A stretch of 64,000 nt of DNA from Escherichia coli (GCF_022846255.1 NZ_AP025682.1), one strand, 5' to 3'. Counted from the first letter of the stretch, positions 2,709-38,320 are shown. Translations and numbers: made by a program. The notes: generated by a model not told the origin, from the letters alone.

Positions 2709-4250
<1,542 letters not shown>

Positions 4251-22377: not shown

Positions 22378-22411
22378 TCCCACAATATGAGATGGAGTTT
22401 ATATTGTGGGA
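22378..22411. promoter_or_regulatory. perfect 11-bp inverted repeat (TCCCACAATAT-N12-ATATTGTGGGA) in the rmuC / IclR divergent region
   Basis: Seen directly in sequence, 62 bp upstream of the IclR-family regulator ATG; candidate operator. Confidence 0.5.
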
Positions 22412-22473
22412 TATATCACCTTTTCCCCACGTCATTATGTGGAACACTTCAGCAATATCATCAGGAGAAACGT

Positions 22474-23241: not shown

Positions 23242-23264
23242 ACCATGATTAAAGGAAACGACTA

Positions 23265-24888: not shown

Positions 24889-24912
24889 CTGATAAATAAG
24901 GATATAAAAGCA

Positions 24913-25887: not shown

Positions 25888-25900
25888 ACCTGAGGTACGG

Positions 25901-26410: not shown

Positions 26411-26422
26411 CAGGGGCCAGCA

Positions 26423-27913
26423 ATGTTTGAAAGTGAACTTTTAACTCAGGGTTTTTCGACATTACTCAATAATCCTCAGGCGCTGCTGTTTGCCACTTTT
26501 GGGGTGATGCTGGGTATTGTGATTGGCGCTTTGCCTGGTCTGACAGCGACCATGGGTGTGGCGATTTTGCTGCCTTTCACCTACGGCATGGAGCCTGTTT
26601 CTGGATTGTTGATGATTTGCGGCGTCTTTTTTGGTGGCGTCTACGGTGGTTCTATCACCGCAATTTTGCTCAAAATTCCCGGAACGCCTGCCGCCGCAGC
26701 CACCGCTATTGATGGTTATGAGCTGACGAAACAGGGAAAAGCAGGGCTGGCATTGAGTGCCGCCACGTTCTCTTCCTTTAGTGGCGGAACGCTCAGCATT
26801 ATCGTGCTGATGTTTCTCTCTCCGGTACTTGCCAGTTGGGCGCTGAAATTTAGTGCCTCGGAGTCCTTCGCCCTGGCAACCTTCGGACTGAGCATTATTG
26901 CCAGTATTTCCGGTGAGTCGCTGATTAAGGGGCTGATTGCCGGGGTTGGCGGATTGCTGATCGCAACGATAGGCCTTGATCCAATGGGCGGTTTTCCACG
27001 GTTTACAGGTGGATTTGTGGAGCTGATGAATGTGCCATTTATCCCGGTGATGATTGGTTTATTTGCTGCTTCAGAAGCATTCCGCTCTATGGAGCAAAAC
27101 CAGCAAATTCGTCGGGGCGCGAAGGTGGCTATCGGCAGTCTGTTACTGCCCTGGCAAACACTACGCCGCATCGCATTAACCATTTTGCGCTCATCAGGAT
27201 TAGGGGTTTTTATCGGCATGATCCCCGGTGCGGGGGCGGATATTGCAGCTTTTGTTGCCTATAACGAAACTCGTCGTTTCAGTAAGACACCAGAAAACTT
27301 TGGTAAGGGTGAAATTAAAGCTGTGGCCTCCTGTGAGGCAGGCGCGAATGGCTGCACCGGTGGCGCATTGTTACCTATGCTGACGCTGGGGATCCCTGGC
27401 GATGCGGTAACCGCCATCATGCTGGGCGCGTTAACGTTACAGGGAATGCAACCAGGCCCGCTGATGTTTACCGACCACGGCGATATGGTTTATACACTGT
27501 TTGTCGGCATGATCTTTTGTTACTTCATGCTGCTAGTTCTTGGACTGCTCTCTTTGAAAGTCATCGGTAACGTGGTGAAGATCCCCGGCAATATTCTCAC
27601 ACCGATGATCCTCGCACTTTGTGTGGTCGGGACTTATGCGTTGAACAATAGCCTTTTTGATGTTGGCATTATGCTGATTGCAGGCGTGGTGGGCTATTTC
27701 ATGCAGAAAGGAGGATATCCGGCATCACCCGTAGTGCTGGCATTGATTATGGGGCCAATGGCGGAAAGTAATTTTCGCCGTGCGCTGTCGCTTTCTGGTG
27801 GGTCACTCGACTTTCTGTATACCCGACCGATCACTCTGGCATTGCTAACTCTGGCAGCCTTTACGCTACTGACGCCAATAATCCGCAAAATAATGCGTTT
27901 ACGGCGTCAGTAA
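26423..27913 (+). CDS. tripartite tricarboxylate transporter large permease (TctA-like)
   Basis: 496-aa polytopic membrane protein with Gly-rich TctA-type segments. Confidence 0.82.
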   Translation: MFESELLTQGFSTLLNNPQALLFATFGVMLGIVIGALPGLTATMGVAILLPFTYGMEPVSGLLMICGVFFGGVYGGSITAILLKIPGTPAAAATAIDGYELTKQGKAGLALSAATFSSFSGGTLSIIVLMFLSPVLASWALKFSASESFALATFGLSIIASISGESLIKGLIAGVGGLLIATIGLDPMGGFPRFTGGFVELMNVPFIPVMIGLFAASEAFRSMEQNQQIRRGAKVAIGSLLLPWQTLRRIALTILRSSGLGVFIGMIPGAGADIAAFVAYNETRRFSKTPENFGKGEIKAVASCEAGANGCTGGALLPMLTLGIPGDAVTAIMLGALTLQGMQPGPLMFTDHGDMVYTLFVGMIFCYFMLLVLGLLSLKVIGNVVKIPGNILTPMILALCVVGTYALNNSLFDVGIMLIAGVVGYFMQKGGYPASPVVLALIMGPMAESNFRRALSLSGGSLDFLYTRPITLALLTLAAFTLLTPIIRKIMRLRRQ

Positions 27914-27920
27914 CTGATAT

Positions 27921-27950
27921 CGCTCCCCGAAGTTGGGGAGCGTTTTTTTA
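27921..27950 (+). terminator. rho-independent terminator after the tctA-like gene (overlaps the udp stop on the opposite strand)
   Basis: CGCTCCCC-GAAGTT-GGGGAGCG stem-loop followed by TTTTTTT. Confidence 0.75.
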
Positions 27951-28712
27951 TTTCAGCAGACGACGCGCCGCTTCCACCACGATTTTCACCGCATGGCTTT
28001 CGGTTTGTTTCATCGTCTCAGCATTCGGGATCTCTTGCTGGGTGCGGTTAACGATAACCCCCGCTACCATACCGGCACGCAGGCCCTGACTTGCACACAT
28101 GGTCAGCAGGGTTGCAGATTCCATTTCATAGTTCATTACGCCCATCGCCTGCCACTCTTCCATAGAACCTTTAAAGTGACGAACTACGCGACCAGAGTAA
28201 GTATCGTAACGTTCCTGACCAGGGTAGAAGGTATCAGAAGAAGCTGTCACGCCAACGTGAGTCGTCGCGCCAATGGATTTCGCAGCTTCAACCAGCGCAG
28301 TCGTACATTCGAAATCAGCGACAGCCGGGAATTCCAGCGGTGCGAAGTGCAGGCTCGCACCATCCAGACGAACAGACGCCGTGGTAACCAGGACATCGCC
28401 AACATTAATATGCGGCTGAATAGCGCCCGTTGTGCCGATACGCAGGAAGGTGCGAATGCCCAGCTGTGCCAGCTCTTCAACAGCAATAGAGGTAGACGGG
28501 CCGCCGATACCGGTAGAGCAGACGATAACAGGTTTACCATCCAGCTCTGCACGCCAGGTGGTGAATTCGCGATGAGATGCCAGCTTAACCGGCTTATCCA
28601 TCAGCGCGGCGATCTTTTCCACACGATCCGGGTCGCCAGGGACGATGGCAAGCGTAGCCCCTTGTAAATCGTTTTTAGTGAGGCCGAGATGAAAAACATC
28701 AGACTTGGACAT
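27948..28712 (-). CDS. udp: uridine phosphorylase
   Basis: Product from [33 protein letters not shown]; the ORF track starts 2 codons upstream. Confidence 0.95.
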
Positions 28713-28789
28713 ATACAACTCCTCTGTGAATCGGTTTAGTCAGAAGAAGCAAAAAGACACTTTACCGAAGGGTTTAACATTTTTTCGTG

Positions 28790-28855
28790 ATACTCATCAC
28801 CATGACGAAAATGCGTTGCATAAATTTACCCGCCAAAAGTGATGCAAATCACATA
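28790..28855 (-). promoter_or_regulatory. udp promoter region with a CRP-type site (TGTGATTTGCATCACT, reverse strand at 28839-28854) and a second weaker upstream half-site pair
   Basis: TGTGA-N6-TCACT match; udp is a known CRP/CytR-regulated gene. Exact operator boundaries not verified. Confidence 0.55.
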
Positions 28856-28973
28856 AATCACTCTTCATTCTGCAGGACTGCATAAAAGATGAGCCGATTC
28901 AGGCAATGTGATTTGTTGCATGCTGACTATAGTTAACATTGCGCAACATTTTTATAAGGGTACGGAGAATACC

Positions 28974-29783
28974 ATGGCAACAACACAACAATCTGGATTT
29001 GCACCTGCTGCATCGCCTCTCGCTTCGACCATCGTTCAGACTCCGGACGACGCGATTGTGGCGGGCTTCACCTCTATCCCTTCACAAGGGGATAACATGC
29101 CTGCTTACCATGCCAGACCAAAGCAAAGCGATGGCCCACTGCCAGTGGTCATTGTAGTGCAGGAAATTTTTGGCGTGCATGAACATATCCGCGATATTTG
29201 TCGCCGTCTGGCGCTGGAGGGGTATCTGGCTATCGCACCTGAACTTTACTTCCGCGAAGGCGATCCGAATGATTTTGCCGATATCCCTACGCTGCTTAGC
29301 GGTCTGGTAGCAAAAGTGCCTGACTCGCAGGTGCTGGCCGATCTCGATCATGTCGCCAGTTGGGCTTCCCGCAACGGCGGCGATGTTCATCGTTTAATGA
29401 TCACCGGATTCTGCTGGGGTGGACGTATCACCTGGCTGTATGCCGCGCATAATCCACAGCTAAAAGCCGCAGTGGCGTGGTACGGCAAACTGACGGGCGA
29501 CAAGTCGCTGAATTCACCGAAACAACCTGTTGATATCGCAACCGATCTTAACGCGCCGGTTCTCGGCTTATATGGTGGTCAGGATAACAGCATTCCGCAA
29601 GAGAGTGTGGAAACGATGCGCCAGGCGTTGCGGGCAGCAAACGCGAAAGCAGAGATTATCGTGTACCCGGATGCAGGGCATGCGTTCAACGCCGATTATC
29701 GTCCGAGCTATCATGCCGAGTCTGCGAAAGACGGCTGGCAGCGAATGTTGGAATGGTTTACACAGTATGGTGTTAAAAAGTAA
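28974..29783 (+). CDS. dlhH: dienelactone hydrolase family protein (carboxymethylenebutenolidase)
   Basis: Start taken at MATTQQSGFAPAASPLAS (ORF track starts 22 codons upstream); alpha/beta hydrolase with GFCWGG nucleophile elbow. Confidence 0.88.
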   Translation: MATTQQSGFAPAASPLASTIVQTPDDAIVAGFTSIPSQGDNMPAYHARPKQSDGPLPVVIVVQEIFGVHEHIRDICRRLALEGYLAIAPELYFREGDPNDFADIPTLLSGLVAKVPDSQVLADLDHVASWASRNGGDVHRLMITGFCWGGRITWLYAAHNPQLKAAVAWYGKLTGDKSLNSPKQPVDIATDLNAPVLGLYGGQDNSIPQESVETMRQALRAANAKAEIIVYPDAGHAFNADYRPSYHAESAKDGWQRMLEWFTQYGVKK

Positions 29784-29848
29784 CGCCATAGTCGCTAAAT
29801 CTGATGATTAAGCTCACACAATTTCAACGATTTTTTTAATCTCAAAAC

Positions 29849-29945
29849 CATACAGCATCAAAAAATTTGTTGCTGTATGCCACTCTTTGACTCCCTTCAC
29901 ATTCGTCATCACACCACCTGCTGAATGCAAAAATTTCGTTGCTGT
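29849..29945. promoter_or_regulatory. candidate operator/promoter region for the downstream 8-gene module: 9-bp inverted repeat CATACAGCA-N13-TGCTGTATG (29849-29879) and a second copy of AAAAATTT(C)GTTGCTGT (29929-29945)
   Basis: Seen directly in sequence; the two AAAAATTTnGTTGCTGT copies lie about 68 bp apart upstream of the hydrolase ATG at 30040. Confidence 0.45.
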
Positions 29946-30039
29946 GCGGCAAACTTTTTTCCTGTTTTGTGCCGCTTTTCTCCTGAATACTCGTTCTCAG
30001 AACAACTGGATCGTTTAAACATCAGACAGGAGATTTACC

Positions 30040-30708
30040 ATGACGCAATCCATTTTTCAGGCTCAACCCTTTGAATTACCTTTTGATCCGCGCACAACTG
30101 CACTGGTCATGATCGACATGCAGCGTGACTTTGTCGAAGCAGGGGGCTTCGGTGAGGCACTGGGCAATGATGTTTCACTGGTACGCACGGCTATCGCACC
30201 ATGTACAGAGGTGCTGGCAGCCGCACGTCAAAAAGGAATTATGGTTATTCATACTCGTGAAGGCCATCGTGCAGACTTAAGCGACTGCCCGCCAGCCAAA
30301 CTGACGCGCGGCGGAAAAACCTTTATTGGTGAACCAGGACCGATGGGACGCATTCTGGTCAGAGGTGAAGCAGGTCATGACATCATTCCTGAACTGTACC
30401 CGGTGGCAGGCGAACCGGTGATTGATAAGCCTGGCAAAGGCGCGTTTTATCAAACCGACTTACATCTGATTTTGCAAAACCACGGTATCAAGACGCTGAT
30501 AGTTTGTGGTGTTACAACCGAAGTTTGCGTAACCACCACCGTGCGCGAAGCAAATGATCGTGGCTATGAATGCATTATCCCGGAAGATTGTGTCGGCTCC
30601 TATTTCCCGGAATTCCAGAAATACGCCCTCGAGATGATCAAAGCACAAGGTGCCATTTTCGGTTGGGTTACTGATTCCAAAGCCATTATTGCAGGCCTGG
30701 AAGGCTAA
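30040..30708 (+). CDS. isochorismatase-family cysteine hydrolase (RutB / N-carbamoylsarcosine amidase-like amidohydrolase)
   Basis: 222 aa; D-K-C triad context (VMIDMQRDF ... IVCGVTTEVCVTTT) typical of the isochorismatase-like hydrolase fold. Confidence 0.8.
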   Translation: MTQSIFQAQPFELPFDPRTTALVMIDMQRDFVEAGGFGEALGNDVSLVRTAIAPCTEVLAAARQKGIMVIHTREGHRADLSDCPPAKLTRGGKTFIGEPGPMGRILVRGEAGHDIIPELYPVAGEPVIDKPGKGAFYQTDLHLILQNHGIKTLIVCGVTTEVCVTTTVREANDRGYECIIPEDCVGSYFPEFQKYALEMIKAQGAIFGWVTDSKAIIAGLEG

Positions 30709-30713
30709 CACCG

Positions 30714-31574
30714 ATGGTACAGGTTACGCTTTGCGCATCGTCGTTGGGATATCTTTTCCCGCAGAATGAAACGCAAGATTTACGTCTACATAGCGCTTTT
30801 AAACATGCGGTAAATCTGTATTCAGACGCGGGAACATTCATCACTCTGTTGTGTGCGCAAACGTATCTGAATCTCCCTGATGCAGCCAGAGTCTGGCTAC
30901 CTGAATGTTGGGACTGGCGAAGAGAGATTGCCCATTCAGATCCCATTCAGTTAACCCCAGGCTTACTGCGGACACCTCGATTTTGTGTGGCGCTCGAAAA
31001 CGCAACGCTCTGGCAGTCGCCATTTGTGGGGGGAATGCTGACACTTGAGGCATTCCCTTTGGTTTTCCAGCACTACCCAACGATGGCATCGCAACGGCTT
31101 TTATTTTGTCTGGAACATAACGTTCAAAGCACATTGCACCTGCCGGATAGTCTCACGCACCAGGGATTAGCGATTATGGAGCATCCAGATGCGCTGGAAC
31201 GCCAGGTGCCACAACTGATCGGCTTTGGTAAAGGCTTAACGCCCGATGGAGATGACTATTTGTTGGGCTATCTGGCAGCACTCTGGTTATGGCAACTCCC
31301 TGCACCACTTGCCGATCATCAATACCGGTTGCAGCAGGTAATTGATCAACATGCGCACAACACCACGGATATCAGTCGTCATTATCTGGAGCGTGCGCTT
31401 CAGGGACATTTTTCAGAACCGATTTGCCAGTTACTCGCACAACTGGTTGGGAGTGCATCGGCAATGACAATCGCATCCTGTGCAGAACAGGTCATGCAAT
31501 TTGGCGCAACGTCAGGAGTAGATTGCCTTGCAGGAATGCTGCATGGCTTTCGAACCCTGAACACCATGAATTGA
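30714..31574 (+). CDS. hypothetical protein, possibly YlbF/DUF2877-like
   Basis: 286-aa ORF 6 nt after the hydrolase stop; family guess rests on synteny with FdrA-like and DUF1116-like genes, not on motif recognition. Confidence 0.55.
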   Translation: MVQVTLCASSLGYLFPQNETQDLRLHSAFKHAVNLYSDAGTFITLLCAQTYLNLPDAARVWLPECWDWRREIAHSDPIQLTPGLLRTPRFCVALENATLWQSPFVGGMLTLEAFPLVFQHYPTMASQRLLFCLEHNVQSTLHLPDSLTHQGLAIMEHPDALERQVPQLIGFGKGLTPDGDDYLLGYLAALWLWQLPAPLADHQYRLQQVIDQHAHNTTDISRHYLERALQGHFSEPICQLLAQLVGSASAMTIASCAEQVMQFGATSGVDCLAGMLHGFRTLNTMN

Positions 31575-31668
31575 TTTCAACCTTTTCTCCCGTAGCCCGT
31601 TTATGGGGCTACACGGGGATGCTTTGCCCGAATTTTGCTATCGGGCGGAATGAAACAGGCGTAACAGC

Positions 31669-33228
31669 ATGAAAGTTAAATATAAAGTTTTCAGTAATCT
31701 TTATCAGGACTCAGTTTCTCTGATGCAGATTTCCGCGCAAATCAGCAAGTTGCCCGGTATTCAACAGGCCTCGGTCGTCATGGGAACACCCAATAATCTC
31801 GAGCAATTGAGCGATGCGGGTCTGGGTAACGAAATCAACGCCAGTCCCAATGATTTAGTGATTGCAGTCATGGGTGAAGAAGATATTTGCAATGAAGCAC
31901 TGGTACTGGCCCAGCAACGTCTGACCAGCAAACCCGATGATGAAACGGATAGTGGCATTAAAACACCGGAAAAGGTCAGCCTGGAAATGGCACTGGAAGC
32001 CGAGCCCGAAGCCAACCTGGCACTCATTTCTGTACCGGGAGACTACGCCGCCGCCGAAGCAATTAAAGCGTTAAACCTCGGAATGAACGTGATGATGTTC
32101 AGCGATAACGTCAGTATCGTGCAGGAAAAATCCATCAAAACGCTTGCCCGAGAACGTCAGCGCATCGTAATGGGACCTGACTGTGGAACCGCCATTGTTA
32201 ACGGCATTCCGTTAGGCTTCGCTAATGTGGTGAAACGCGGAGCAATTGGTGTTATTGGCGCGTCAGGCACCGGGCTACAGGAAGTGACTTGCCGAATCGA
32301 CCAGCTCGGAGCGGGTATTTCTCAGGCGTTGGGAACAGGCGGACATGATCTCAGTGAAGAGATTGGTGGAATATCGATGCTCTTCGCTTTAGATGCGCTG
32401 GCGCAAGACGATGAAACTCGCGTGATTGTGCTTATTTCAAAACCGCCTTCACCGATCGTTGCCCGGACTATTCTGGAGCGTGCCGAGGCTTGTGGAAAAC
32501 CCGTGGTGGTGAATTTCCTCGGTGCGAATCCGCATGATCTGGCACGTCCCAATATCACCGCGGCCACCACACTTGCCAGCGCCGCAAATATCGCCGTGGC
32601 GTTACTGAATGATCAACCACTTCCGACTATCGAGACCGAAATTTCCTGCGACGATCTCACAATGTTACAAAACGCCTGCCAGCGCCTGCCAGCCCATCGC
32701 CAGGCGATACGCGGTGTTTTCGCCGGAGGAACCTTCTGCTACGAAGCGCAACTTATCTGCCAACAAAAGGGATTCATCGCAGCCTCCAATACGCCAGTTG
32801 CGGGTAATCGTGCTCTGGCAAATATCTGGCAAATCGAAGATCACACGTTGATCGATATGGGCGACGATGATTTCACCCGTGGCAAACCGCATCCAATGAT
32901 CGACCCGACTCTGCGCAATCAACGTCTGCTCAACGAACTCAACGACTCACACACTGCCGTCGTGTTATTCGACCTGGTACTTGGTTATGGCGCTTCCACG
33001 ACGCCTGCCAGCGAATTACTGGACCAACTTTCACACATCGACATGAATAACGCACCGTTGCTGATTGCGCACGTTTGCGGAACGGAAGCTGATCCGCAAA
33101 TACGCAGTCAGCAGATAAGCGCACTACAAAATGCAGGGGTCATCATCGCCAGCAGCAATGCACAGGCGGCGCTATGGGCCAGCACCGTTGCACAGACTCA
33201 GTTGCAGAAAAAGGGGCTAAACGCATGA
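31669..33228 (+). CDS. FdrA-like protein (acyl-CoA synthetase/succinyl-CoA synthetase alpha-like, NAD(P)-binding)
   Basis: 519 aa; shares FQDSVSLM, VMGTP, LALISVPG.YAA, NVMMFSDNV, MGPDCGT, GVIGASGTG, GKPHPMIDPTLRNQ with E. coli FdrA as I recall it. Confidence 0.82.
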   Translation: MKVKYKVFSNLYQDSVSLMQISAQISKLPGIQQASVVMGTPNNLEQLSDAGLGNEINASPNDLVIAVMGEEDICNEALVLAQQRLTSKPDDETDSGIKTPEKVSLEMALEAEPEANLALISVPGDYAAAEAIKALNLGMNVMMFSDNVSIVQEKSIKTLARERQRIVMGPDCGTAIVNGIPLGFANVVKRGAIGVIGASGTGLQEVTCRIDQLGAGISQALGTGGHDLSEEIGGISMLFALDALAQDDETRVIVLISKPPSPIVARTILERAEACGKPVVVNFLGANPHDLARPNITAATTLASAANIAVALLNDQPLPTIETEISCDDLTMLQNACQRLPAHRQAIRGVFAGGTFCYEAQLICQQKGFIAASNTPVAGNRALANIWQIEDHTLIDMGDDDFTRGKPHPMIDPTLRNQRLLNELNDSHTAVVLFDLVLGYGASTTPASELLDQLSHIDMNNAPLLIAHVCGTEADPQIRSQQISALQNAGVIIASSNAQAALWASTVAQTQLQKKGLNA

Positions 33229-34649
33229 ATACCTTATTTAATCAGCCTTTGAAGGTCGTGAACGCGGGACTACACAGTTTTGCTGACAATATTCAACATG
33301 CCGGGGGAAGCGCAATTGCACTCAACTGGCAGCCACCAGCACAAGGCGATATTGACGCTGGATTGGATCTGGCATCGTTGCTACGTCATCCCCTGGTAGA
33401 AAATGCCAACCAAATCGCCATGACACGTTATCTCGAAGCACAGCCCGTGCTGGTGGATGTCATGCTCGCTAAAGAGGCCATTCCAGCAATGGCTGAACAA
33501 AAACGTATTTTGCACTCTGGCCCGCCGATTGCCTGGGAAGAGATGTGTGGTCCGGTAAAAGGGGCGATTATTGGTGCCATGCTGTACGAAGGTTGGGCCA
33601 CCAGCCAGCAAGACGCTGAAAACCAAATAAACGCAGGCGAAATCGACCTTGCCCCTTGTCATCATTATCACGCGGTTGGCCCAATGGCAGGCATCATCAG
33701 CCCGTCGATGCCGTTATGGGTGGTAGAAAACAAAACCAACGGCCATCGTACTTTTAGCAATTTCAATGAAGGGCTGGGTAAGGTTCTCCGTTTTGGCGCC
33801 AATAACGATGAAGTTCTCAATCGTCTGGCCTGGATGCGCGATGAACTGGCGCCGGCAATGAAAGCAGCAATCGCACAACACGGCGAGCTGGAACTCAAGC
33901 CATTAATGGCGCAGGCGCTGCATATGGGGGATGAAGTTCATAACCGCAATGCTGCCGCTACCGGTTTGCTGATTAAGCGCCTGCTCCCGGCATTGCTGGC
34001 CTGCTCTCTTCCACAGGAACATATCCAGCGCGTCGTGGCATTTATCACCGGTAACGATCACTTCTTCCTCAATCTTTCGATGGCCGCCTGTAAAGCAATG
34101 ATGGATGCCGCCGCCAATGTACCGTTCAGTTCAATGGTTACGGTGATGGCGCGTAACGGGGTGAATTTTGGTATTCGGCTTTCCGGTACTGGCGATCGCT
34201 GGTTCCAGGCTCCTGCCAATGCCGTTGAAGGTCTGTTCTTCCCCGGATTTGGCGTCGACGATGCCGCTGCTGACCTGGGTGATAGCGCAATTACTGAAAC
34301 CGCAGGTGTGGGTGGCTTCGCGATGGCGTCATCTCCAGCGATCGTCAAATTTGTGGGAGGCACCCCTGCCGATGCCACCAATAACAGCCGTAGGATGCAA
34401 GCAATCACCCTCGGTGGTAACCCCGCATTTACACTTCCTGCCCTCAATTTTGCCCCCACCGCAGCAGGGATTGATGCGCGTAAAGTGACCGATCGCGGCA
34501 TTTTACCGGTCATCAATACGGGTATCGCCCACAAACAAGCGGGGGTCGGGCAAATTGGTGCCGGGATCACCACTGCGCCGATGGCCTGTTTTGTCGCCGC
34601 TGTACGTGCACTGGCGGAGATCGTCGCAAAGGAGAACCATCATGGTTAA
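33225..34649 (+). CDS. DUF1116-family protein (YlbE-like)
   Basis: Start taken at MNTLFNQPLKVVNAG, whose ATG overlaps the fdrA-like stop (ATGA); ORF track starts 17 codons upstream. Family call by synteny and length. Confidence 0.7.
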   Translation: MNTLFNQPLKVVNAGLHSFADNIQHAGGSAIALNWQPPAQGDIDAGLDLASLLRHPLVENANQIAMTRYLEAQPVLVDVMLAKEAIPAMAEQKRILHSGPPIAWEEMCGPVKGAIIGAMLYEGWATSQQDAENQINAGEIDLAPCHHYHAVGPMAGIISPSMPLWVVENKTNGHRTFSNFNEGLGKVLRFGANNDEVLNRLAWMRDELAPAMKAAIAQHGELELKPLMAQALHMGDEVHNRNAAATGLLIKRLLPALLACSLPQEHIQRVVAFITGNDHFFLNLSMAACKAMMDAAANVPFSSMVTVMARNGVNFGIRLSGTGDRWFQAPANAVEGLFFPGFGVDDAAADLGDSAITETAGVGGFAMASSPAIVKFVGGTPADATNNSRRMQAITLGGNPAFTLPALNFAPTAAGIDARKVTDRGILPVINTGIAHKQAGVGQIGAGITTAPMACFVAAVRALAEIVAKENHHG

Positions 34650-35598
34650 GCCACTGGCTGTCGTCGCGGTTGGCGGCAATGCGCTCATTCAGGACGAGCA
34701 ACGCAATAGTATTCCCGATCAATATGTTGCAGTGATGGAAAGCGTGCAACATATCGTTGATATGGTTGAAGCCGGATGGGACCTGGTACTAACCCACGGT
34801 AATGGCCCGCAGGTGGGCTTTATTCTGCGCCGCTCTGAACTCGCCAGTAACGAAGTTTCTCCGGTTCCACTTGATTACGCCGTGGGTGATACACAAGGTG
34901 CAATTGGCTACATGTTCCAGAAAGCGCTGCATAACGAATTGGCTCGCCGTGGCATAAACAAACCGGTAATTGCCCTGGTGACACAAACGCGAGTCAGCCC
35001 ACATGACGATGCTTTCGCCAGCCCCAGTAAACCAATTGGCGCGTTTCTCGATGAAGCAACGGCCCAACAACGCCAACAACAACTCGGCTGGACGCTGATG
35101 GAGGACGCCGGGCGTGGTTGGCGGCGTACAGTTCCCTCTCCTGCACCACTGGAAATTATTGAGCACGACACCATCGCTCACCTGGTGCGCCAGGGATATC
35201 TGGTTATTGCCTGCGGCGGCGGCGGTATTCCGGTGGTGCGAGACGGGCAACAACTGAAAGGTGTGGAAGCCGTGATCGATAAAGATCTGGCCTCCGCGCT
35301 GCTCGCCAGTCAGTTAGGCGCAGATCTGCTGGTGATCCCCACCGGTGTAGAAAAAGTAGCGATTAACTTTGGTACACCACAACAACAGTGGCTCGACGCT
35401 ATCAGCGTTGCCGAAGCGCAAACGCTGTTGCGGGAAGGTCAGTTTGGTGTCGGCAGTATGCAACCCAAAGTGGAAGCCATTGTTGATTTCATCAATGCCA
35501 GCCAGCAACAAGGCAAACAGGCCAGCGGCCTGATTACTTCACCGCAAACCATAAAAGCAGCCCTGGCGCATCAGAGCGGTACATGGATAACCCTTTAA
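34642..35598 (+). CDS. carbamate kinase-like (amino acid kinase family, YqeA/ArcC-like)
   Basis: Start MVKPLAVVAVGGNALIQDEQRNS with RBS AAGGAGAA; amino-acid-kinase fold motifs (VAVGGNAL, THGNGPQVG, VIACGGGGIPV); overlaps the upstream stop by 8 nt. Confidence 0.82.
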   Translation: MVKPLAVVAVGGNALIQDEQRNSIPDQYVAVMESVQHIVDMVEAGWDLVLTHGNGPQVGFILRRSELASNEVSPVPLDYAVGDTQGAIGYMFQKALHNELARRGINKPVIALVTQTRVSPHDDAFASPSKPIGAFLDEATAQQRQQQLGWTLMEDAGRGWRRTVPSPAPLEIIEHDTIAHLVRQGYLVIACGGGGIPVVRDGQQLKGVEAVIDKDLASALLASQLGADLLVIPTGVEKVAINFGTPQQQWLDAISVAEAQTLLREGQFGVGSMQPKVEAIVDFINASQQQGKQASGLITSPQTIKAALAHQSGTWITL

Positions 35599-35614
35599 TT
35601 CTCTGGAGAACACA

Positions 35615-36004
35615 ATGACTACAACGCTTTTAGCCGTTAACGGAACGCTGATGCGCGGCCTGGAACTCAACCCAAATATGCAAAAAGCGGGCGGTATTTT
35701 TGTCCGTGAAGACCGAACTGACGCCCATTACCGGTTGTGGAGTATTAATGATCGCCATCCGGGAATGATTCGCGTGAATGAAGGAGGAACACACGTCGAC
35801 GTAGAAATTTGGCAATTACCGCTGGCCAGTTTTGCCGCTCTGTTAATGAGCGAACCCGCTGGGCTGGCAATTGGCAAAATCAAACTTGCCGATGGTAGCG
35901 AAGTGCTGGGCGTACTGGCAGAAAACTGGCTGACCGAAGGCCAACGGGAAATTACAGAACTGGGTAGCTGGCGCAAATACACCGGGCATTTTCATACTGT
36001 GTAA
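35615..36004 (+). CDS. small protein, probably gamma-glutamylcyclotransferase-like (AIG2/GGCT fold)
   Basis: 129 aa; family call is tentative, based on size and general resemblance to GGCT-like domains. Confidence 0.5.
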   Translation: MTTTLLAVNGTLMRGLELNPNMQKAGGIFVREDRTDAHYRLWSINDRHPGMIRVNEGGTHVDVEIWQLPLASFAALLMSEPAGLAIGKIKLADGSEVLGVLAENWLTEGQREITELGSWRKYTGHFHTV

Positions 36005-36029
36005 CGCGCATTTATAAAGGGAACATACT

Positions 36030-37253
36030 ATGCGTAAAAAAGAAGAGAATCTGAATACGGCATCAGGATTGCGTATTGCCATGATTTTGCTGGGTATTGC
36101 CGTCACACCTGTGCTGTTGTCATCCTCAAGCCTCGGCAATCAACTTTCCAGCGGCAGTTTAATTAGCGTCGTATTGTTAGGCGGCGTCATTCTGACCTTA
36201 CTTTCAGCCATCACCATTAGCGTGGGAGAAAAAGCCCGCCTGCCAACGTATGGCATTGTGAAATATTCGTTTGGCGAAAAAGGGGCCATCGCCATTAACA
36301 TTTTGATGGCGATAAGTCTGTTCGGCTGGATTGCCGTTACCGCCAATATGTTTGGTCATTCGGTACATGACTTACTGGCTCAACATGGACTGGAAGTTCC
36401 ACTGGCACTGTTAGTGGCGGCTGGCTGTGTCATTTTTGTCGCCTCTACGGCATTTGGCTTTGCCGTTCTGGGAAAAATTGCCCAGGTTGCCGTGCCGGTT
36501 ATCGCGCTGGTGCTGTGTTACATCCTCTATGTGGCAACCCATACCGAAGTGGCAGTACCAGCGGCGATTGTGGAGATGAATACAGGTGTCGCCGTTTCCA
36601 CCGTTGTTGGCACCATTATTGTGCTGGTTGCCACACTGCCTGATTTCGGTAGTTTTGTGCATAACCGCAAACATGCGCTGATTGCCGCAGGCGTGACGTT
36701 TCTGGTTGCCTACCCTCTGCTCTACTGGGCGGGTGCAACGCCGAGCGCCATTAGTGGTCAGGGATCTTTACTGGGTGCGATGGCGGTATTCGGTGCGGTT
36801 CTGCCTGCGGCGCTGTTGTTGATTTTCGCCTGCGTCACCGGTAACGCGGGCAATATGTTCCAGGGCACGCTGGTGGTTTCCACACTGCTTACCCGCTTTC
36901 CCAAATGGCAGATTACCGTGGCGCTGGGTATCCTTTCCGCCATCGTAGGCAGTATGGATATTATGGCGTGGTTTATTCCGTTTCTGCTGTTCCTGGGTAT
37001 CGCCACGCCACCCGTTGCCGGAATTTATATCGCTGACTTTTTCCTTTATCGCCGTAATGGCTATCAAGAGTCAGTGTTAGCCCAGGAGTCACAGATTAAA
37101 GTGCTGACATTCGCAGCATGGATCATAGGCGCAGCGGTTGGCTTTATGACCGTAAAAGGCTTATTCACCCTGACGACGATCCCTTCGGTAGACTCGATTC
37201 TGGTGGCATGTATCGCGTATGCGATTCTCAGTCGGGCAAGTCAACACCGCTAA
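36030..37253 (+). CDS. NCS1-family nucleobase permease (cytosine/purine permease CodB-like)
   Basis: 407-aa, ~12-TM protein with CodB-like length and hydrophobicity pattern. Confidence 0.7.
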   Translation: MRKKEENLNTASGLRIAMILLGIAVTPVLLSSSSLGNQLSSGSLISVVLLGGVILTLLSAITISVGEKARLPTYGIVKYSFGEKGAIAINILMAISLFGWIAVTANMFGHSVHDLLAQHGLEVPLALLVAAGCVIFVASTAFGFAVLGKIAQVAVPVIALVLCYILYVATHTEVAVPAAIVEMNTGVAVSTVVGTIIVLVATLPDFGSFVHNRKHALIAAGVTFLVAYPLLYWAGATPSAISGQGSLLGAMAVFGAVLPAALLLIFACVTGNAGNMFQGTLVVSTLLTRFPKWQITVALGILSAIVGSMDIMAWFIPFLLFLGIATPPVAGIYIADFFLYRRNGYQESVLAQESQIKVLTFAAWIIGAAVGFMTVKGLFTLTTIPSVDSILVACIAYAILSRASQHR

Positions 37254-37330
37254 TTCCTGGGTATACTCAGGCAATGATTACGGCTGAATCTGGAGAGATT
37301 CAGCCACTTTACCACTGACCAGGGAGCCTT

Positions 37331-38227
37331 ATGTTCATCTCAGACGAAACGCTTCGTGTTATTCATCTGGTCGCCAGACACCAGAGCATTACCACCGCAG
37401 CCGAGCAGTTAAATAAAGTCCCTTCCGCCATCAGTTACACCATCAAGAAAGCGGAAGAGAGCCTGGGCGTTGAACTGTTCATTCGTAAGGGACGCTATAT
37501 TGAATTATCGCCAGCGGGAAGTTACTTCATCGAACATAGCAAAACTATTCTTGGCGACCTGGAAGCATTAAAGCGCAACACAGTGCTGATTCACGATGGT
37601 ATTGAGCGTGAACTGACAATAGCGGTAAACAATATTATTCCTGGTGATTTGCTGGTGGCATTTATTCGAGATTTTGAACGGCAATTCACATCAACAACAC
37701 TGACGGTAGATCTTGAGGTATACAACGGCTGCTGGGATGCGCTGTACAGTAAGCGTGCTGATCTGGTCTACGGTGCTCCTCATGCAGTACCAAGCAGTGA
37801 AGGCATCATTAGCGAACCGGTCGGACAAATGGAATGGGATTTTGTCGTCAGCCCACTCCACCCACTGGCAGCGAAGCGGCATCCATTAGAAAACAGTGAA
37901 TTGCGTCATTATCCAGCGGTTTGTATCCGCGATACCTCCGTTAACTTCCCCCCGATGCAAGCCTGGTTGTTGGAAGGACAAAAACCCATTTTTGTTCCTG
38001 ACTTCGCTACGGCAATCGCCTTAATAGAACAAAACGTCGGTATTGGTTATATTCCACATCATCTGGCATTGCCGTTATTGAACAGCGGTAAATTGCTTAA
38101 AAAGCCAATGCGCGAACATAAACACGCCACCAAGTTATTTCTTGCCGCTCGTTCCGATGGTATGGGCAAAGCCTGTCAGTGGTGCATAGAATATTTAAGA
38201 AATCCGCAATTAATTTTCTGTTCCTGA
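37331..38227 (+). CDS. LysR-family transcriptional regulator
   Basis: 298 aa; N-terminal HTH (LRVIHLVARHQSITTAAEQLNKVPSAISYTIKKAEESLGVELFIR). Confidence 0.88.
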   Translation: MFISDETLRVIHLVARHQSITTAAEQLNKVPSAISYTIKKAEESLGVELFIRKGRYIELSPAGSYFIEHSKTILGDLEALKRNTVLIHDGIERELTIAVNNIIPGDLLVAFIRDFERQFTSTTLTVDLEVYNGCWDALYSKRADLVYGAPHAVPSSEGIISEPVGQMEWDFVVSPLHPLAAKRHPLENSELRHYPAVCIRDTSVNFPPMQAWLLEGQKPIFVPDFATAIALIEQNVGIGYIPHHLALPLLNSGKLLKKPMREHKHATKLFLAARSDGMGKACQWCIEYLRNPQLIFCS

Positions 38228-38250
38228 AGATCCACATCATACCTGGCATA

Positions 38251-38284
38251 CATAGCAAAATGGCTTCCGGTGTTGGAAGCCATT
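38251..38284 (-). terminator. rho-independent terminator of metE (hairpin also closes the LysR gene on the other strand)
   Basis: AATGGCTTCC-GGTGTT-GGAAGCCATT 10-bp stem; on the minus strand it is followed by TTTTGCTATG. Confidence 0.7.
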
Positions 38285-38320
38285 ATTGTGCTGCAATTTA
38301 CAATGACTCGTTAATACTCA

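What the first reader, a model, noticed from the sequence alone, without database searches (positions are those of the whole stretch)
29784..38320. Eight-gene module between dlhH and metE: FdrA/YlbE/YlbF-like proteins with carbamate kinase, a cysteine hydrolase, a GGCT-like protein, an NCS1 permease and a LysR regulator
In K-12, as I recall, dlhH (ysgA) and metE are convergent neighbours; here about 8.5 kb of co-directional genes sits between them. The FdrA-like (motifs seen), DUF1116 and YlbF-like (both by synteny) and carbamate-kinase-like genes mirror the fdrA-ylbE-ylbF-ybcF set next to the allantoin genes, which has been linked to oxalurate/oxamate carbamoyl transfer (citation not verifiable here). 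In this copy they are combined with an isochorismatase-family amidohydrolase and a CodB-like nucleobase permease. That combination suggests import of a nucleobase-like cyclic amide or ureide, hydrolytic ring opening or deamidation, carbamoyl transfer to phosphate, and ATP recovery by carbamate kinase. Substrate and pathway are inference.
Basis: partly seen in the sequence, partly recalled or inferred. Interest (0 to 1): 0.8.

Follow-up and report, generated by a model that had tools for sequence, protein, structure and literature searches.

The report
Predicted triuret-to-ATP operon in E. coli
The eight genes between ysgA and metE are the uncharacterised half of a known B2-ExPEC island. They look like a self-contained operon that breaks down triuret, a urate-oxidation product found in urine, into ammonia and ATP through carbamoyl phosphate.

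Summary
Eight intact co-directional genes fill 29784-38320; K-12 has only 39 bp there. The block is not new as an island: it is APECO1_2632-2639 of the 16-kb "tkt1 island" (Li 2012), whose functions were left unknown.

- It occurs in 1553 of 5426 complete E. coli genomes.
- A copy about 94.6% identical sits on 82 conjugative plasmids, including ColV-type APEC plasmids.

The homology calls hold but can be sharpened.
- The cysteine hydrolase is triuret-hydrolase (TrtA) type: 59% identical, with 14 of 14 catalytic, binding and specificity residues matching.
- The "GGCT-like" protein is a stand-alone allophanate-hydrolase C-domain. Its structure is already solved as PDB 5C5Z.
- The AllH/AllF/AllG-like proteins form a third paralogue set, 25-49% identical to both K-12 sets.

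The seven-gene core keeps one order in Enterobacterales, Vibrionales, Moraxellales, Xanthomonadales and Burkholderiales. A sister cassette has the same carbamoyltransferase clade (AllG 79-80% identical), with hydrolase, C-domain and permease replaced by cyanuric acid hydrolase and other transporters. TrtA and cyanuric acid hydrolase both make 1-carboxybiuret.

Best model: triuret is deamidated; carboxybiuret, biuret or allophanate is phosphorolysed to carbamoyl phosphate; carbamate kinase makes ATP. Substrates are inferred, not shown.

The parts
29784..30039 (+). Intergenic control region upstream of the operon. It holds a palindrome (ATACAGCA-N13-TGCTGTAT, 29850-29878) and a second copy of the motif AAAAATTT(C)GTTGCTGT at 29929-29945.
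   Evidence: The blocks TGCAAAA-TTTCG, TCACA and TTTxCTGTT are conserved upstream of the orthologous operons of Citrobacter, Edwardsiella, Serratia and the ColV plasmid copy. No sigma-70 consensus promoter was found there, which fits an activator-dependent promoter. Binding by the LysR protein is inferred.
30040..30708 (+). Isochorismatase-like cysteine hydrolase of the triuret hydrolase (TrtA) type, 222 aa
   Evidence: The best solved homologue is TrtA 6XIX (270 bits), ahead of BiuH 6AZO (237) and RutB (105). Identity is 58.7% to TrtA and 53.5% to BiuH. D24, F29, E72, K129, K132, T158, C162 and Q202 are present, and all six TrtA-versus-BiuH discriminators (F35, N41, A134, E160, Y187, I205) are TrtA-type (residues defined in PMC7948467). 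It scores below the NCBIfam BiuH cut-off (280 < 370).
30714..31574 (+). AllH-like (DUF2877) subunit, 286 aa
   Evidence: Pfam AllH PF11392, E 6.5e-27. It is 25% identical to YahE and 33% to the AllH C-terminal part. It is the fastest-evolving gene of the module, 28-62% identical between hosts.
31669..33228 (+). AllF/FdrA-like subunit, 519 aa
   Evidence: NCBIfam NF004760 FdrA scores 495.7 bits, above the 433 cut-off. It is 41.5% identical to YahF and 40.5% to AllF.
33225..34649 (+). AllG-like (DUF1116) subunit, 474 aa
   Evidence: Pfam AllG PF06545, E 8.6e-99. It is 48.5% identical to AllG and 46% to YahG. It is 71-89% identical within a clade that holds both the TrtA-type and the cyanuric-acid-hydrolase-type cassettes.
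34642..35598 (+). Carbamate kinase, 318 aa
   Evidence: TIGR00746 arcC equivalog scores 366 bits, above the 358 cut-off; NF009007 scores 378, above 266. It is 48.6% identical to YahI and 38.8% to AllK.
35615..36004 (+). Stand-alone allophanate hydrolase C-terminal-domain protein (AH_C), 129 aa
   Evidence: Pfam AH_C PF21986, E 1.8e-41. It matches positions 472-595 of the 600-position allophanate hydrolase model. It is 100% identical to PDB 5C5Z. It is 69-91% conserved across hosts. Natural fusions exist with BiuH-type hydrolases and with carbamate kinase.
36030..37253 (+). NCS1-family permease (CodB-like, not a CodB orthologue), 407 aa
   Evidence: It scores 145.7 bits on the cytosine permease model, below the 326 cut-off. 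Pfam Transp_cyt_pur is assigned to the orthologues.
37331..38227 (+). LysR-type regulator (PunR/AllS-like), 298 aa
   Evidence: It scores 287 bits on NF008294 PunR (below the 345 cut-off) and 214 on AllS. It is 66% identical to the regulator of the cyanuric-acid-hydrolase cassette.
38260..38283 (.). Perfect hairpin (ATGGCTTCC-GGTGTT-GGAAGCCAT) between the LysR and metE stop codons. It takes the place of the K-12 ysgA/metE hairpin.
   Evidence: Read directly from the sequence. The simple terminator scan did not flag it, so a terminator role is inferred.

Best explanation
The region is a self-contained, LysR-controlled catabolic operon for triuret (carbonyldiurea) or a very close linear carbamoyl-urea.

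Proposed steps:
1. The NCS1 permease imports the compound.
2. The TrtA-type cysteine hydrolase removes one terminal amide, giving ammonia and 1-carboxybiuret.
3. The stand-alone AH_C protein handles an N-carboxylated intermediate. Most likely it decarboxylates carboxybiuret to biuret, doing the job that the unrelated TrtB does elsewhere.
4. A distinct AllH/AllF/AllG-type carbamoyltransferase transfers the terminal carbamoyl group to phosphate instead of hydrolysing it. The donor could be biuret, carboxybiuret or allophanate.
5. Carbamate kinase converts carbamoyl phosphate and ADP into ATP and carbamate, which decays to ammonia and CO2.

The operon would thus replace the biuret hydrolase and allophanate hydrolase of the known triuret pathway with an ATP-yielding phosphorolytic route.

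Basis of each step:
- Shown by family scores above curated cut-offs, or by strong Pfam hits: the family identities of carbamate kinase, AllF, AllG, AllH and AH_C.
- Strong inference: TrtA-like specificity.
- Moderate inference: the carbamoyl donor is a product of carboxybiuret chemistry.
- Weak inference: the exact donor and the role of AH_C.
For: 1. **Hydrolase.** The closest solved relative is TrtA, and all 14 catalytic, substrate-contact and specificity residues are TrtA-type. The same holds in all 36 module hydrolases examined, whereas an archaeal relative (L056) is BiuH-type (residue definitions).

2. **One unit under selection.** The order hydrolase-AllH-AllF-AllG-CK-AH_C-permease is the same in every fully annotated context of an orthologue. 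These are Citrobacter, Edwardsiella, Serratia, Caballeronia, Dyella, Psychrobacter, Photobacterium and a metagenome contig. All six detectable genes were found in every non-truncated locus of the genome scan with AllG at least 77% identical, apart from the two cyanuric-acid-hydrolase cassettes.

3. **Natural swap.** A cassette occurs in rare E. coli drafts, a Klebsiella michiganensis plasmid and Huaxiibacter. Its AllF, AllG, CK and LysR are 68%, 80%, 71% and 66% identical to the window's, and its AllG is nested in the same clade. In place of hydrolase, AH_C and NCS1 permease it has a cyanuric acid hydrolase (577 bits against a 360 cut-off; 6BUM E 1e-173), an NCS2 permease and a DcuC-like transporter. 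TrtA and cyanuric acid hydrolase both produce 1-carboxybiuret (PMC7948467).

4. **No conventional downstream enzymes.** Neither cassette encodes BiuH or the amidase domain of AtzF or AtzE. The carbamoyltransferase is the only candidate for the downstream steps.

5. **Precedent.** AllFGH with AllK is an experimentally shown carbamoyl-phosphate-forming, ATP-yielding route for the N-acylurea oxalurate (PMC11326118).

6. **More distant AllFG cassettes** sit beside the same chemistry:
   - an AtzE-like amidase (Herpetosiphonaceae) and an AtzD-family enzyme (Clostridia);
   - a BiuH-type hydrolase in Nitrososphaeraceae;
   - trtA, biuH and atzF in comammox Nitrospira (PMC12625717).

7. **AH_C.** It co-varies with the hydrolase and not with AllFG/CK. 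It is found fused to BiuH-type hydrolases in both orders, which parallels the amidase plus AH_C architecture of allophanate hydrolase.

8. **A divergent variant.** One high-GC contig has a hydrolase with the TrtA signature at 5 of the 6 discriminator positions, then AllF, AllG, a CK::AH_C fusion and a urea-channel (UT) gene.
Against: - No enzyme of this module has been assayed, so every substrate is inferred from homology and gene context.
- The hydrolase is only 59% identical to the one characterised TrtA. It forms its own tight clade, 82-91% identical between hosts.
- It does not sit with biuH and atzF as characterised trtA genes do.
- The cyanuric-acid-hydrolase cassette lacks AH_C. AH_C therefore cannot be essential for using carboxybiuret, and its role stays open.
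- The fused hydrolases are BiuH-type, not TrtA-type. They are metagenome gene calls that could not be checked in context.
- If biuret is the carbamoyl donor, the product is urea. As I recall, most E. coli cannot use urea.
- A CodB-like permease gives no positive evidence for triuret uptake.
- No growth, transcript or mutant data for these eight genes were found in the library.
Confidence: 0.5

Rival explanations
1. Biuret, not triuret, is the physiological substrate. The hydrolase acts as a biuret hydrolase making allophanate. The AllHFG-like enzyme phosphorolyses allophanate to carbamoyl phosphate and carbamate, and AH_C speeds the breakdown of the N-carboxy species.
For: - The best NCBIfam model for the hydrolase is BiuH (280 bits), and it is 53.5% identical to BiuH.
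- The AH_C fusions are with BiuH-type hydrolases.
- Archaeal clusters pair a BiuH-type hydrolase with allFGHK without atzF (L056).
- A generalist BiuH that also takes triuret exists.
Against: - All six positions that separate TrtA from BiuH are TrtA-type in all 36 module hydrolases.
- In TrtA, the single changes F35Y, N41Y and Y187T each cost more than 90% of triuret activity, and TrtA has about 10^-5 relative activity on biuret.
- The score is below the BiuH equivalog cut-off.
Confidence: 0.15
2. The operon degrades a different, still unidentified ureide or carbamoyl amide that happens to fit a TrtA-like pocket. Candidates are formylurea, guanylurea-like compounds, a urate or 5-azacytosine breakdown product, or a drug such as a hydroxyurea derivative. 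The AllHFG-like enzyme acts on the resulting N-acylurea.
For: - Specificity within the isochorismatase-like hydrolases shifts with second-shell residues.
- The module hydrolases form their own clade, about 59% identical to TrtA.
- The permease is of the nucleobase type.
- TrtA has trace activity on formylurea and nitrobiuret.
Against: - All first-shell and discriminator residues are identical to TrtA.
- The sister cassette uses a bona fide cyanuric acid hydrolase, whose product is the same as TrtA's. This ties the shared carbamoyltransferase to carboxybiuret chemistry.
Confidence: 0.2
3. It is a second oxalurate (allantoin-branch) pathway. The AllHFG-like enzyme is another oxamic transcarbamylase, and the hydrolase deamidates oxamate or a related product.
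For: All three OXTCase subunit families and a carbamate kinase are present. RefSeq names the DUF2877 protein "oxamate carbamoyltransferase subunit AllH family".
Against: - Identity to K-12 AllF, AllG and AllH is only 33-49%, no closer than to the Yah paralogues.
- The module is never next to allantoin genes in the ten annotated contexts.
- The same clade is coupled to cyanuric acid hydrolase.
- The hydrolase pocket is TrtA-like.
Confidence: 0.08
4. It is a pyrimidine-degradation (Rut-like) module: a pyrimidine enters through the CodB-like permease and a RutB-like hydrolase releases carbamate. This is the reading proposed for GR 29 of BEN2908.
For: PMC12928451 reports 32% identity to RutB and 26.5% to CodB.
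Against: - The RutB match (105-112 bits) is far weaker than the TrtA and BiuH matches (237-270 bits).
- No RutA-type ring-opening oxygenase or any other ring-opening enzyme is in the module.
- RutB's product, carbamate, needs neither a carbamoyltransferase nor a kinase to yield ammonia.
Confidence: 0.04

Closest known systems
Triuret/biuret pathway TrtA-(TrtB)-BiuH-AtzF of Herbaspirillum sp. BH-1 and Rhizobium (Tassoulas 2020, PMC7948467)
   Same: The first enzyme is the same: an isochorismatase-like cysteine hydrolase with the full TrtA residue signature. The expected intermediate, 1-carboxybiuret, is also the same.
   Different: There is no BiuH, no TrtB (an AtzH/HpxZ-family protein) and no amidase domain of AtzF. 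Their place is taken by an AllH/F/G-type carbamoyltransferase, a carbamate kinase and a stand-alone AH_C domain. The route would be phosphorolytic and ATP-yielding instead of hydrolytic.
Oxamic transcarbamylase AllFGH with catabolic carbamate kinase AllK of E. coli K-12 (Kim & Kim 2022, 2024; PMC11326118)
   Same: The three subunit families and the operonic carbamate kinase are the same. So is the logic of turning an N-carbamoyl amide into carbamoyl phosphate and then ATP in bacteria without urease.
   Different: Identity is only 33-49%. The gene order is H-F-G-K, not F-G-H-K. The module is not linked to allantoin genes. It is coupled to a TrtA-type hydrolase or, in the sister cassette, to cyanuric acid hydrolase. 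A different carbamoyl donor is therefore expected.
yahE-yahF-yahG-yahI-yahJ cluster of E. coli K-12 (uncharacterised paralogue set)
   Same: Same gene order (DUF2877, FdrA-like, DUF1116, carbamate-kinase-like) and a LysR regulator nearby. The carbamate kinase is closest to YahI, at 48.6%.
   Different: Identity is 25-49%. The yah cluster has an ankyrin protein and a metal-dependent amidohydrolase (YahJ) instead of the cysteine hydrolase, AH_C and NCS1 permease. Its function is also unknown.
Allophanate hydrolase (AtzF, DUR1,2 AH domain; PDB 4GYR, 4ISS)
   Same: The 129-aa protein is homologous to the C-terminal domain over its whole length. 19 positions conserved in at least 97% of the stand-alone proteins are identical in both solved allophanate hydrolases. 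As in allophanate hydrolase, it accompanies an amidase that turns a terminal ureido amide into an N-carboxylate.
   Different: The amidase-signature N-domain is absent. The partner amidase belongs to an unrelated fold. The stand-alone family also has its own invariant residues, for example N9, R14, R31, H48 and K88.
tkt1 genomic island of B2 ExPEC (Li et al. 2012, PMC3349570), also GR 29 of BEN2908 (PMC12928451)
   Same: Same chromosomal site and the same eight genes, APECO1_2632-2639.
   Different: The window carries only this half. The RpiR-tkt1-PTS-SIS half seen in APEC O1 and ST131 is missing, and LysR abuts metE directly. The published work assigned no function to these eight genes.
Arginine deiminase pathway (catabolic ornithine transcarbamylase plus carbamate kinase)
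   Same: Substrate-level ATP synthesis by phosphorolysis of a carbamoyl-nitrogen bond followed by carbamate kinase. This comparison rests on established biochemistry, summarised.
   Different: The transcarbamylase family is unrelated, and the carbamoyl donor (citrulline) is different.

Membership tests
Triuret hydrolase TrtA (isochorismatase-like hydrolase) | Catalytic triad Asp24-Lys129-Cys162 and substrate contacts F29, E72, K132, T158, Q202 | tested here: met
   All are present in the window protein and in all 36 module orthologues. Residues are defined in PMC7948467.
Triuret hydrolase TrtA (isochorismatase-like hydrolase) | TrtA consensus at the six positions that differ from BiuH: F35, N41, A134, E160, Y187, I205 | tested here: met
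   6 of 6 are TrtA-type. BiuH 6AZO has Y, Y, S, D, T, V, and the archaeal relative L056 is BiuH-type at five of the six positions.
Triuret hydrolase TrtA (isochorismatase-like hydrolase) | Genomic clustering with biuH and atzF | tested here: not met
   No BiuH-type paralogue or amidase-signature gene lies in or next to the module in the window or in ten annotated contexts.
Triuret hydrolase TrtA (isochorismatase-like hydrolase) | High, specific activity on triuret giving carboxybiuret and ammonia | not testable with these tools
   This needs an enzyme assay.
Oxamic transcarbamylase AllFGH | Three subunits of the AllF (FdrA), AllG (DUF1116) and AllH (DUF2877) families encoded together with a carbamate kinase | tested here: met
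   NCBIfam FdrA 496 > 433 and arcC 366 > 358. Pfam AllH and AllG.
Oxamic transcarbamylase AllFGH | Orthology to b0518-b0520, meaning closer to them than to other paralogues | tested here: not met
   40.5%, 48.5% and 33% identity to AllF, AllG and AllH, against 41.5%, 46% and 25% to YahF, YahG and YahE. In the AllG matrix, K-12 AllG is 44-54% identical to every other sequence.
Oxamic transcarbamylase AllFGH | Location downstream of the allantoin genes allECD, with oxalurate as substrate | tested here: not met
   The module sits between ysgA and metE. No allantoin genes flank it in any host examined. The substrate itself cannot be tested here.
Allophanate hydrolase | N-terminal amidase-signature domain | tested here: not met
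   The 129-aa protein matches only model positions 472-595 of 600, and no amidase-signature gene is in the module.
Allophanate hydrolase | C-terminal AH_C domain | tested here: met
   PF21986, E 1.8e-41. Aligns with the C-domains of 4GYR and 4ISS.
Rut pathway (RutB ureidoacrylate amidohydrolase) | RutB equivalog score and presence of rutA and other rut genes | tested here: not met
   TIGR03614 scores 112 bits against a 378 cut-off. No rut genes are in the block.
Cytosine permease CodB | Equivalog-level similarity to CodB | tested here: not met
   146 bits against a 326 cut-off. It belongs to the NCS1 family only.
Accessory genomic island (tkt1 island) | Same insertion site and gene content as APECO1_2632-2639, absent from K-12 | tested here: met
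   The tkt1-containing half is absent from the window.

The most novel reading that the evidence does not exclude
A distinct clade of AllFGH-type enzymes is a biuret, carboxybiuret or allophanate : phosphate carbamoyltransferase. With a TrtA-type hydrolase, a stand-alone AH_C decarboxylase and carbamate kinase, it would form a previously undescribed route that needs neither urease nor allophanate hydrolase and that yields ATP. The route would mineralise triuret and, in the sister cassette, cyanuric acid. It is carried by about 29% of complete E. coli genomes, including B2 lineages such as ST131 and APEC O2:K1, and by ColV-type plasmids. That would let extraintestinal E. coli draw nitrogen and energy from oxidised urate in urine and in urate-rich avian hosts.
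Probability: 0.35. Interest if true: 0.78.

Novelty: new variant of a known kind. Interest (0 to 1): 0.6.

Why it matters
- **A function for a known ExPEC marker.** These eight genes belong to an island long used as a marker of B2 ExPEC. Li 2012 found it in 70-94% of B2 APEC, UPEC and NMEC isolates. A second copy travels on conjugative ColV-type virulence plasmids. No function had been assigned.
- **A concrete, testable substrate.** Triuret is formed when peroxynitrite oxidises urate and has been detected in human urine (PMC7948467). That would link a nutritional trait to the urinary niche. A link to the avian niche is my own suggestion.
- **New enzymology.** The result would extend the newly discovered three-subunit oxamic transcarbamylase family to new carbamoyl donors. 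It would suggest a role for the allophanate hydrolase C-domain and for the orphan structure 5C5Z. It would also give a lead on the K-12 yahEFGI genes.
- **Environmental relevance.** It would show that enteric bacteria can encode routes for triuret, biuret and cyanuric acid, which are also fertiliser and pool-water chemicals.

Tried and rejected
1. **AH_C as TrtB.** I tested whether the AH_C protein is the known carboxybiuret decarboxylase TrtB. It is not: TrtB belongs to the AtzH/HpxZ family. AH_C can be at most a non-homologous analogue.
2. **AtzF near the Klebsiella cassette.** A full-length allophanate hydrolase lies 5 kb from the cyanuric-acid-hydrolase cassette on the K. michiganensis plasmid. 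It looked like evidence that allophanate is the product. IS5 and IS6 transposase genes separate it from the cassette and it sits beside an ABC-transporter gene, so I did not use it.
3. **Rut-like pyrimidine reading.** Rejected on scores and on the lack of any ring-opening enzyme.
4. **Recent horizontal acquisition.** There is no GC deviation. The module lies at the same site next to metE in Citrobacter (two species) and Lelliottia. There its proteins are 77-91% identical, except AllH at 62%, against 91-96% for udp, ysgA, metE and metR. Old residence with loss from K-12-like lineages is at least as likely as insertion.
5. **Promoter search.** No sigma-70 consensus promoter and no match to a loose TGG-N8-9-TGC pattern upstream of the operon.
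6. **More distant AllG loci.** Annotation of the Rhodospirillaceae and alphaproteobacterial MAG loci gave only unrelated neighbours.
7. **Papers not held.** Aukema 2020 (on TrtB) and Fan 2013 (on the function of the allophanate hydrolase C-domain) could not be read. What I say about the C-domain converting N-carboxycarbamate rests on my recollection of Fan et al. 2013.
8. **Fusion proteins.** Contexts of the BiuH::AH_C fusions P0252 and P0256 are not on record.
9. **Solved structures.** None match the AllH-like protein.

Full report
**1. What is in the sequence**

Between the stop codon of ysgA/dlhH (29783) and that of metE (38321) lie eight intact ORFs on the + strand, with short or overlapping junctions:
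- a 222-aa cysteine hydrolase (30040-30708)
- a DUF2877/AllH-like protein (30714-31574)
- an FdrA/AllF-like protein (31669-33228)
- a DUF1116/AllG-like protein (33225-34649)
- a carbamate kinase (34642-35598; the ATG start agrees with RefSeq)
- a 129-aa protein (35615-36004)
- an NCS1 permease (36030-37253)
- a LysR regulator (37331-38227)

NCBIfam puts the FdrA-like protein (496 bits, cut-off 433) and the carbamate kinase (arcC, 366 bits, cut-off 358) above their curated cut-offs. Pfam confirms AllH (PF11392), AllG (PF06545) and, for the 129-aa protein, the allophanate hydrolase C-terminal domain AH_C (PF21986, E 1.8e-41). The GGACT/AIG2 family is only a weak second hit.

In K-12, metE and ysgA are convergent and 39 bp apart, with one hairpin between them.

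**2. The block is already known as an island, but not by function**

Li et al. 2012 (PMC3349570) described a 16-kb "tkt1 genomic island" between metE and ysgA in APEC O1. APECO1_2632-2639 are these eight genes, annotated then as isochorismatase hydrolase, yahE, yahF, yahG, carbamate kinase, hypothetical, permease and regulator. The function of most of the island's ORFs was given as unknown. By PCR the island was found in 70-94% of B2 APEC, UPEC and NMEC isolates. A 2026 paper lists it as GR 29 and speculates about Rut-like pyrimidine degradation.

In my searches:
- 1553 of 5426 complete E. coli genomes carry at least 80% of the block.
- 3537 have the K-12-type empty junction.
- Others have different inserts. 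One example has a tssD gene and two genes of unknown function.

In ST131 and APEC O1 the module is followed by RpiR, tkt1, a PTS IIBC gene and a SIS-domain gene. In the window, LysR abuts metE directly, so only the eight-gene half is present.

A second copy, about 94.6% identical, lies on 82 conjugative plasmids (78 Escherichia, 4 Klebsiella). Among them are the APEC IMT5155 plasmid and NC_007675, which I recall is pAPEC-O2-ColV. Many come from poultry. On one such plasmid the copy is flanked by IS remnants and lies near an ABC-transporter/MFS gene set that I take to be eitABCD.

Base composition is unremarkable: 51.1% GC for the block against 51.9% for the window.

The module occupies the same site next to metE in two Citrobacter species and in Lelliottia. 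Against Citrobacter amalonaticus the module proteins are 77-91% identical, apart from AllH at 62%. The flanking udp, ysgA, metE and metR products are 91-96% identical. Long residence at this site with loss from K-12-like lineages is at least as likely as a recent insertion.

**3. Sharper identities**

*The hydrolase.* Its best solved relatives are 6XIX and 6XJ4 (270 and 266 bits), which are the triuret hydrolase TrtA of Herbaspirillum BH-1. These score ahead of biuret hydrolase BiuH (237 bits) and far ahead of RutB (105 bits) (PDB codes identified).

Tassoulas et al. list the catalytic triad (D24, K129, C162), the substrate contacts (F29, E72, K132, T158, Q202) and six positions that distinguish TrtA from BiuH:

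| Position | TrtA | BiuH |
|---|---|---|
| 35 | F | Y |
| 41 | N | Y |
| 134 | A | S |
| 160 | E | D |
| 187 | Y | T |
| 205 | I | V |

Most of the single TrtA-to-BiuH changes are deleterious: F35Y, N41Y and Y187T each leave less than 10% of triuret activity and E160D leaves about half, while A134S has no effect. TrtA is about 10^5-fold less active on biuret. The window protein, and all 36 module hydrolases I collected, are TrtA-type at all 14 positions. An archaeal relative next to allFG is BiuH-type. Overall identity is 58.7% to TrtA and 53.5% to BiuH.

*The 129-aa protein.* It is 100% identical to PDB entry 5C5Z, deposited under the name "Glutamyl-tRNA amidotransferase". This is a misnomer for an AH_C domain.

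*The AllH/F/G-like proteins and the kinase.* They are about equally distant from the two K-12 paralogue sets:

| Window protein | Identity to All set | Identity to Yah set |
|---|---|---|
| AllF-like | 40.5% (AllF) | 41.5% (YahF) |
| AllG-like | 48.5% (AllG) | 46% (YahG) |
| AllH-like | 33% (AllH, C-terminal part) | 25% (YahE) |
| Carbamate kinase | 38.8% (AllK) | 48.6% (YahI) |

This is a third paralogue set, with the gene order of the yah cluster.

**4. The module is one conserved unit**

I looked up contexts of AllH-like and AH_C orthologues. All show the same order: isochorismatase, AllH, AllF, AllG, kinase, AH_C, NCS1 permease. A LysR gene is usually nearby. The hosts are Citrobacter amalonaticus, Edwardsiella tarda, Serratia, Caballeronia, Dyella, Psychrobacter, Photobacterium and a metagenome contig.

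A scan of one genome per species with AllG returned 42 loci:
- Every non-truncated locus with AllG at least 77% identical has the hydrolase, AllF, AllG, kinase, AH_C and permease. Two loci are exceptions, described in section 5.
- The hosts are Escherichia, Citrobacter, Enterobacter, Serratia, Rahnella, Limnobaculum, Caballeronia, Burkholderia and others.

Conservation against the window is uneven:
- hydrolase 82-91%
- AllG 74-88%
- AH_C 69-91%
- AllH only 28-62%

**5. A natural swap that points to the shared intermediate**

Another accessory cassette occurs in two E. coli draft assemblies, a Klebsiella michiganensis plasmid (bracketed by IS elements) and Huaxiibacter. No complete E. coli genome has it. 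It has this order:
- a DcuC-like transporter
- an AtzD-family enzyme
- an NCS2 permease
- AllH, AllF, AllG and kinase
- LysR

Its AllF, AllG, kinase and LysR are 68%, 80%, 71% and 66% identical to the window's. In an identity matrix its AllG is nested among the TrtA-type modules (71-89% within the clade), while K-12 AllG and YahG are 44-48% identical to all of them.

The AtzD-family protein passes the equivalog cut-off for cyanuric acid amidohydrolase (577 bits against 360). It matches the solved cyanuric acid amidohydrolase 6BUM at E 1e-173.

Cyanuric acid hydrolase and TrtA make the same product, 1-carboxybiuret, which decays to biuret with a half-life of about 20 minutes. Neither cassette encodes BiuH or an AtzE or AtzF amidase. 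The simplest reading is that this carbamoyltransferase clade consumes carboxybiuret or one of its immediate descendants (biuret, allophanate). The related LysR proteins may sense such a shared intermediate.

More distant AllFG cassettes also sit next to enzymes of this chemistry:
- an AtzE-like amidase in a Herpetosiphonaceae MAG and an AtzD-family enzyme in a Clostridia MAG;
- a BiuH-type hydrolase in a Nitrososphaeraceae MAG;
- trtA, biuH and atzF in comammox Nitrospira, where the authors read the allFGHK genes as a separate oxalurate pathway.

**6. The AH_C protein**

AH_C co-varies with the hydrolase, not with the carbamoyltransferase. It is present in all TrtA-type modules and absent from the cyanuric-acid-hydrolase cassettes.

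A search of 1.8 billion cluster representatives found proteins in which AH_C is fused to other domains:
- to BiuH-type isochorismatase-like hydrolases, in both orders (P0252, P0256, P0322);
- to carbamate kinase (P0245).

The P0245 fusion lies in a high-GC contig with this order: a hydrolase with the TrtA signature at 5 of the 6 discriminator positions (73% identical), AllF, AllG, CK::AH_C, and a urea-channel (UT) gene. No AllH was found there.

In AtzF the C-terminal 14 kDa is dispensable for amidase activity (PMC3944691). I recall that Fan et al. 2013 assigned the C-domain the conversion of N-carboxycarbamate, but I could not read that paper.

Together this suggests that AH_C processes the N-carboxylate released when an amidase deamidates a terminal ureido group. 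Here that would be carboxybiuret to biuret plus CO2. This step is weakly supported, for three reasons. The fusions are unverified metagenome gene calls. Their hydrolase domains are BiuH-type. The sister cassette does without AH_C.

**7. Proposed mechanism**

1. The NCS1 permease takes up the substrate. *Inferred.*
2. The hydrolase converts triuret to NH3 and carboxybiuret. *Strong homology inference.*
3. AH_C acts on the N-carboxy intermediate. *Weak inference.*
4. The AllH/F/G-like enzyme transfers a terminal carbamoyl group to phosphate. *Inferred* from the shown activity of AllFGH on oxalurate and from the gene-context arguments above.
5. Carbamate kinase makes ATP. *Family membership shown by score; direction inferred.*

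Two sub-variants remain open:
- **Biuret as donor.** Biuret + Pi gives carbamoyl phosphate + urea. This yields one ATP and leaves urea. It fits a decarboxylase role for AH_C and the UT gene.
- **Carboxybiuret, then allophanate, as donors.** This yields two ATP, releases all four nitrogens and makes no urea. It fits the argument of Kim & Kim that this enzyme type serves urease-negative enterics.

I rate the two about equally likely.

**8. Regulation**

The 256-bp upstream region has no sigma-70 consensus promoter. It carries a palindrome (29850-29878) and a repeated AAAAATTT(C)GTTGCTGT motif (29861-29876 and 29929-29945). Sequence blocks in it are conserved upstream of the enterobacterial orthologues. 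This fits activator-dependent transcription. Binding by the LysR protein is not shown.

**9. Novelty and verdict**

The island, its site and its ExPEC association are published, and the gene families are all known. What appears new is the functional reading. The library searches found no paper linking triuret or biuret to E. coli, or to carbamate kinase, apart from the nitrifier study.

The new reading has three parts:
- a TrtA-type hydrolase in E. coli;
- a separate carbamoyltransferase clade tied to carboxybiuret chemistry by the TrtA/cyanuric-acid-hydrolase swap;
- a stand-alone AH_C partner.

I class this as a new variant of a known kind. Interest is moderate to high because it gives directly testable substrates for a widespread ExPEC and ColV-plasmid module. 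Everything about substrates remains inference.

Noticed in passing
window 22387-27913: A second accessory block lies between rmuC and udp. It encodes an IclR regulator, 2-dehydro-3-deoxygalactonokinase and a tripartite tricarboxylate transporter (Bug/TctC, TctB, TctA). K-12 has udp next to rmuC. 1452 of 5426 complete genomes cover at least 80% of window 20000-29000, which contains this block, a frequency close to that of the module. It is the 5-kb "islet" mentioned by Li 2012.
   Followed up: partly
L011 5576-16179 (E. coli draft GCA_032658605.1); also L012, L029, L030: A sister cassette has the order DcuC-like transporter, cyanuric acid hydrolase, NCS2 permease, AllH, AllF, AllG, carbamate kinase, LysR. 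It sits next to IS1 in E. coli and is bracketed by IS elements on a Klebsiella michiganensis plasmid. No complete E. coli genome has it. It would be a predicted cyanuric acid route without biuret or allophanate hydrolase.
   Followed up: partly
window 29784-38320 site; L006 3229-4936; L001 12653 onwards: The ysgA-metE junction is a variable site. It is empty in K-12 and O157. It holds a tssD (Hcp-type) gene plus two small ORFs in strain JNE112863. In ST131 and APEC O1 it holds the module plus RpiR, tkt1, PTS and SIS genes. The last residues of YsgA also differ between K-12 (…KQYGGKKSL) and the window (…TQYGVKK).
   Followed up: partly
L003 8012-16190 (plasmid pVTB815v-1) and 81 other plasmids: A diverged copy of the whole module, about 94.6% identical in DNA, is carried on large conjugative ColV-type plasmids of APEC and ExPEC. 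On pVTB815v-1 it lies near ABC-transporter/MFS genes resembling eitABCD and next to IS remnants. Some strains may therefore hold both a chromosomal and a plasmid copy.
   Followed up: partly
window 35615-36004: PDB entry 5C5Z is this exact protein, but it is named "Glutamyl-tRNA amidotransferase". Many database entries repeat the name. It is an AH_C domain with no GatA-like part.
   Followed up: yes
P0252, P0256, P0322, P0245; L060 1246-7300: AH_C occurs fused to BiuH-type hydrolases in both orders, once with two hydrolase domains, and fused to carbamate kinase. The CK::AH_C variant lies in a high-GC contig with a urea-channel (UT) gene and no AllH gene.
   Followed up: partly
L004 4926-11508 (K-12 yahE-yahJ): The K-12 yahEFG-yahI-yahJ cluster is a further uncharacterised paralogue set of the same enzyme type. 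It is coupled to a metal-dependent amidohydrolase (YahJ) and an ankyrin protein, so it probably acts on yet another ureide.
   Followed up: no
L016 about 4090-4350 (Psychrobacter, upstream of the hydrolase): A short tandem repeat (GACAATGACTTAAGT, about four copies) precedes the operon, next to a transposase gene.
   Followed up: no
L050 8428-16638 (Clostridia MAG) and L047 8373-15939 (Herpetosiphonaceae MAG): Distant AllF-AllG pairs sit beside related chemistry. In the Clostridia MAG the neighbours are an AtzD-family ring-opening amidohydrolase, a cytosine-deaminase-like amidohydrolase and an LctP-type permease. In the Herpetosiphonaceae MAG they are an acyl-CoA ligase-like protein, an AtzE-like amidase and a carbamate kinase.
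   Followed up: no
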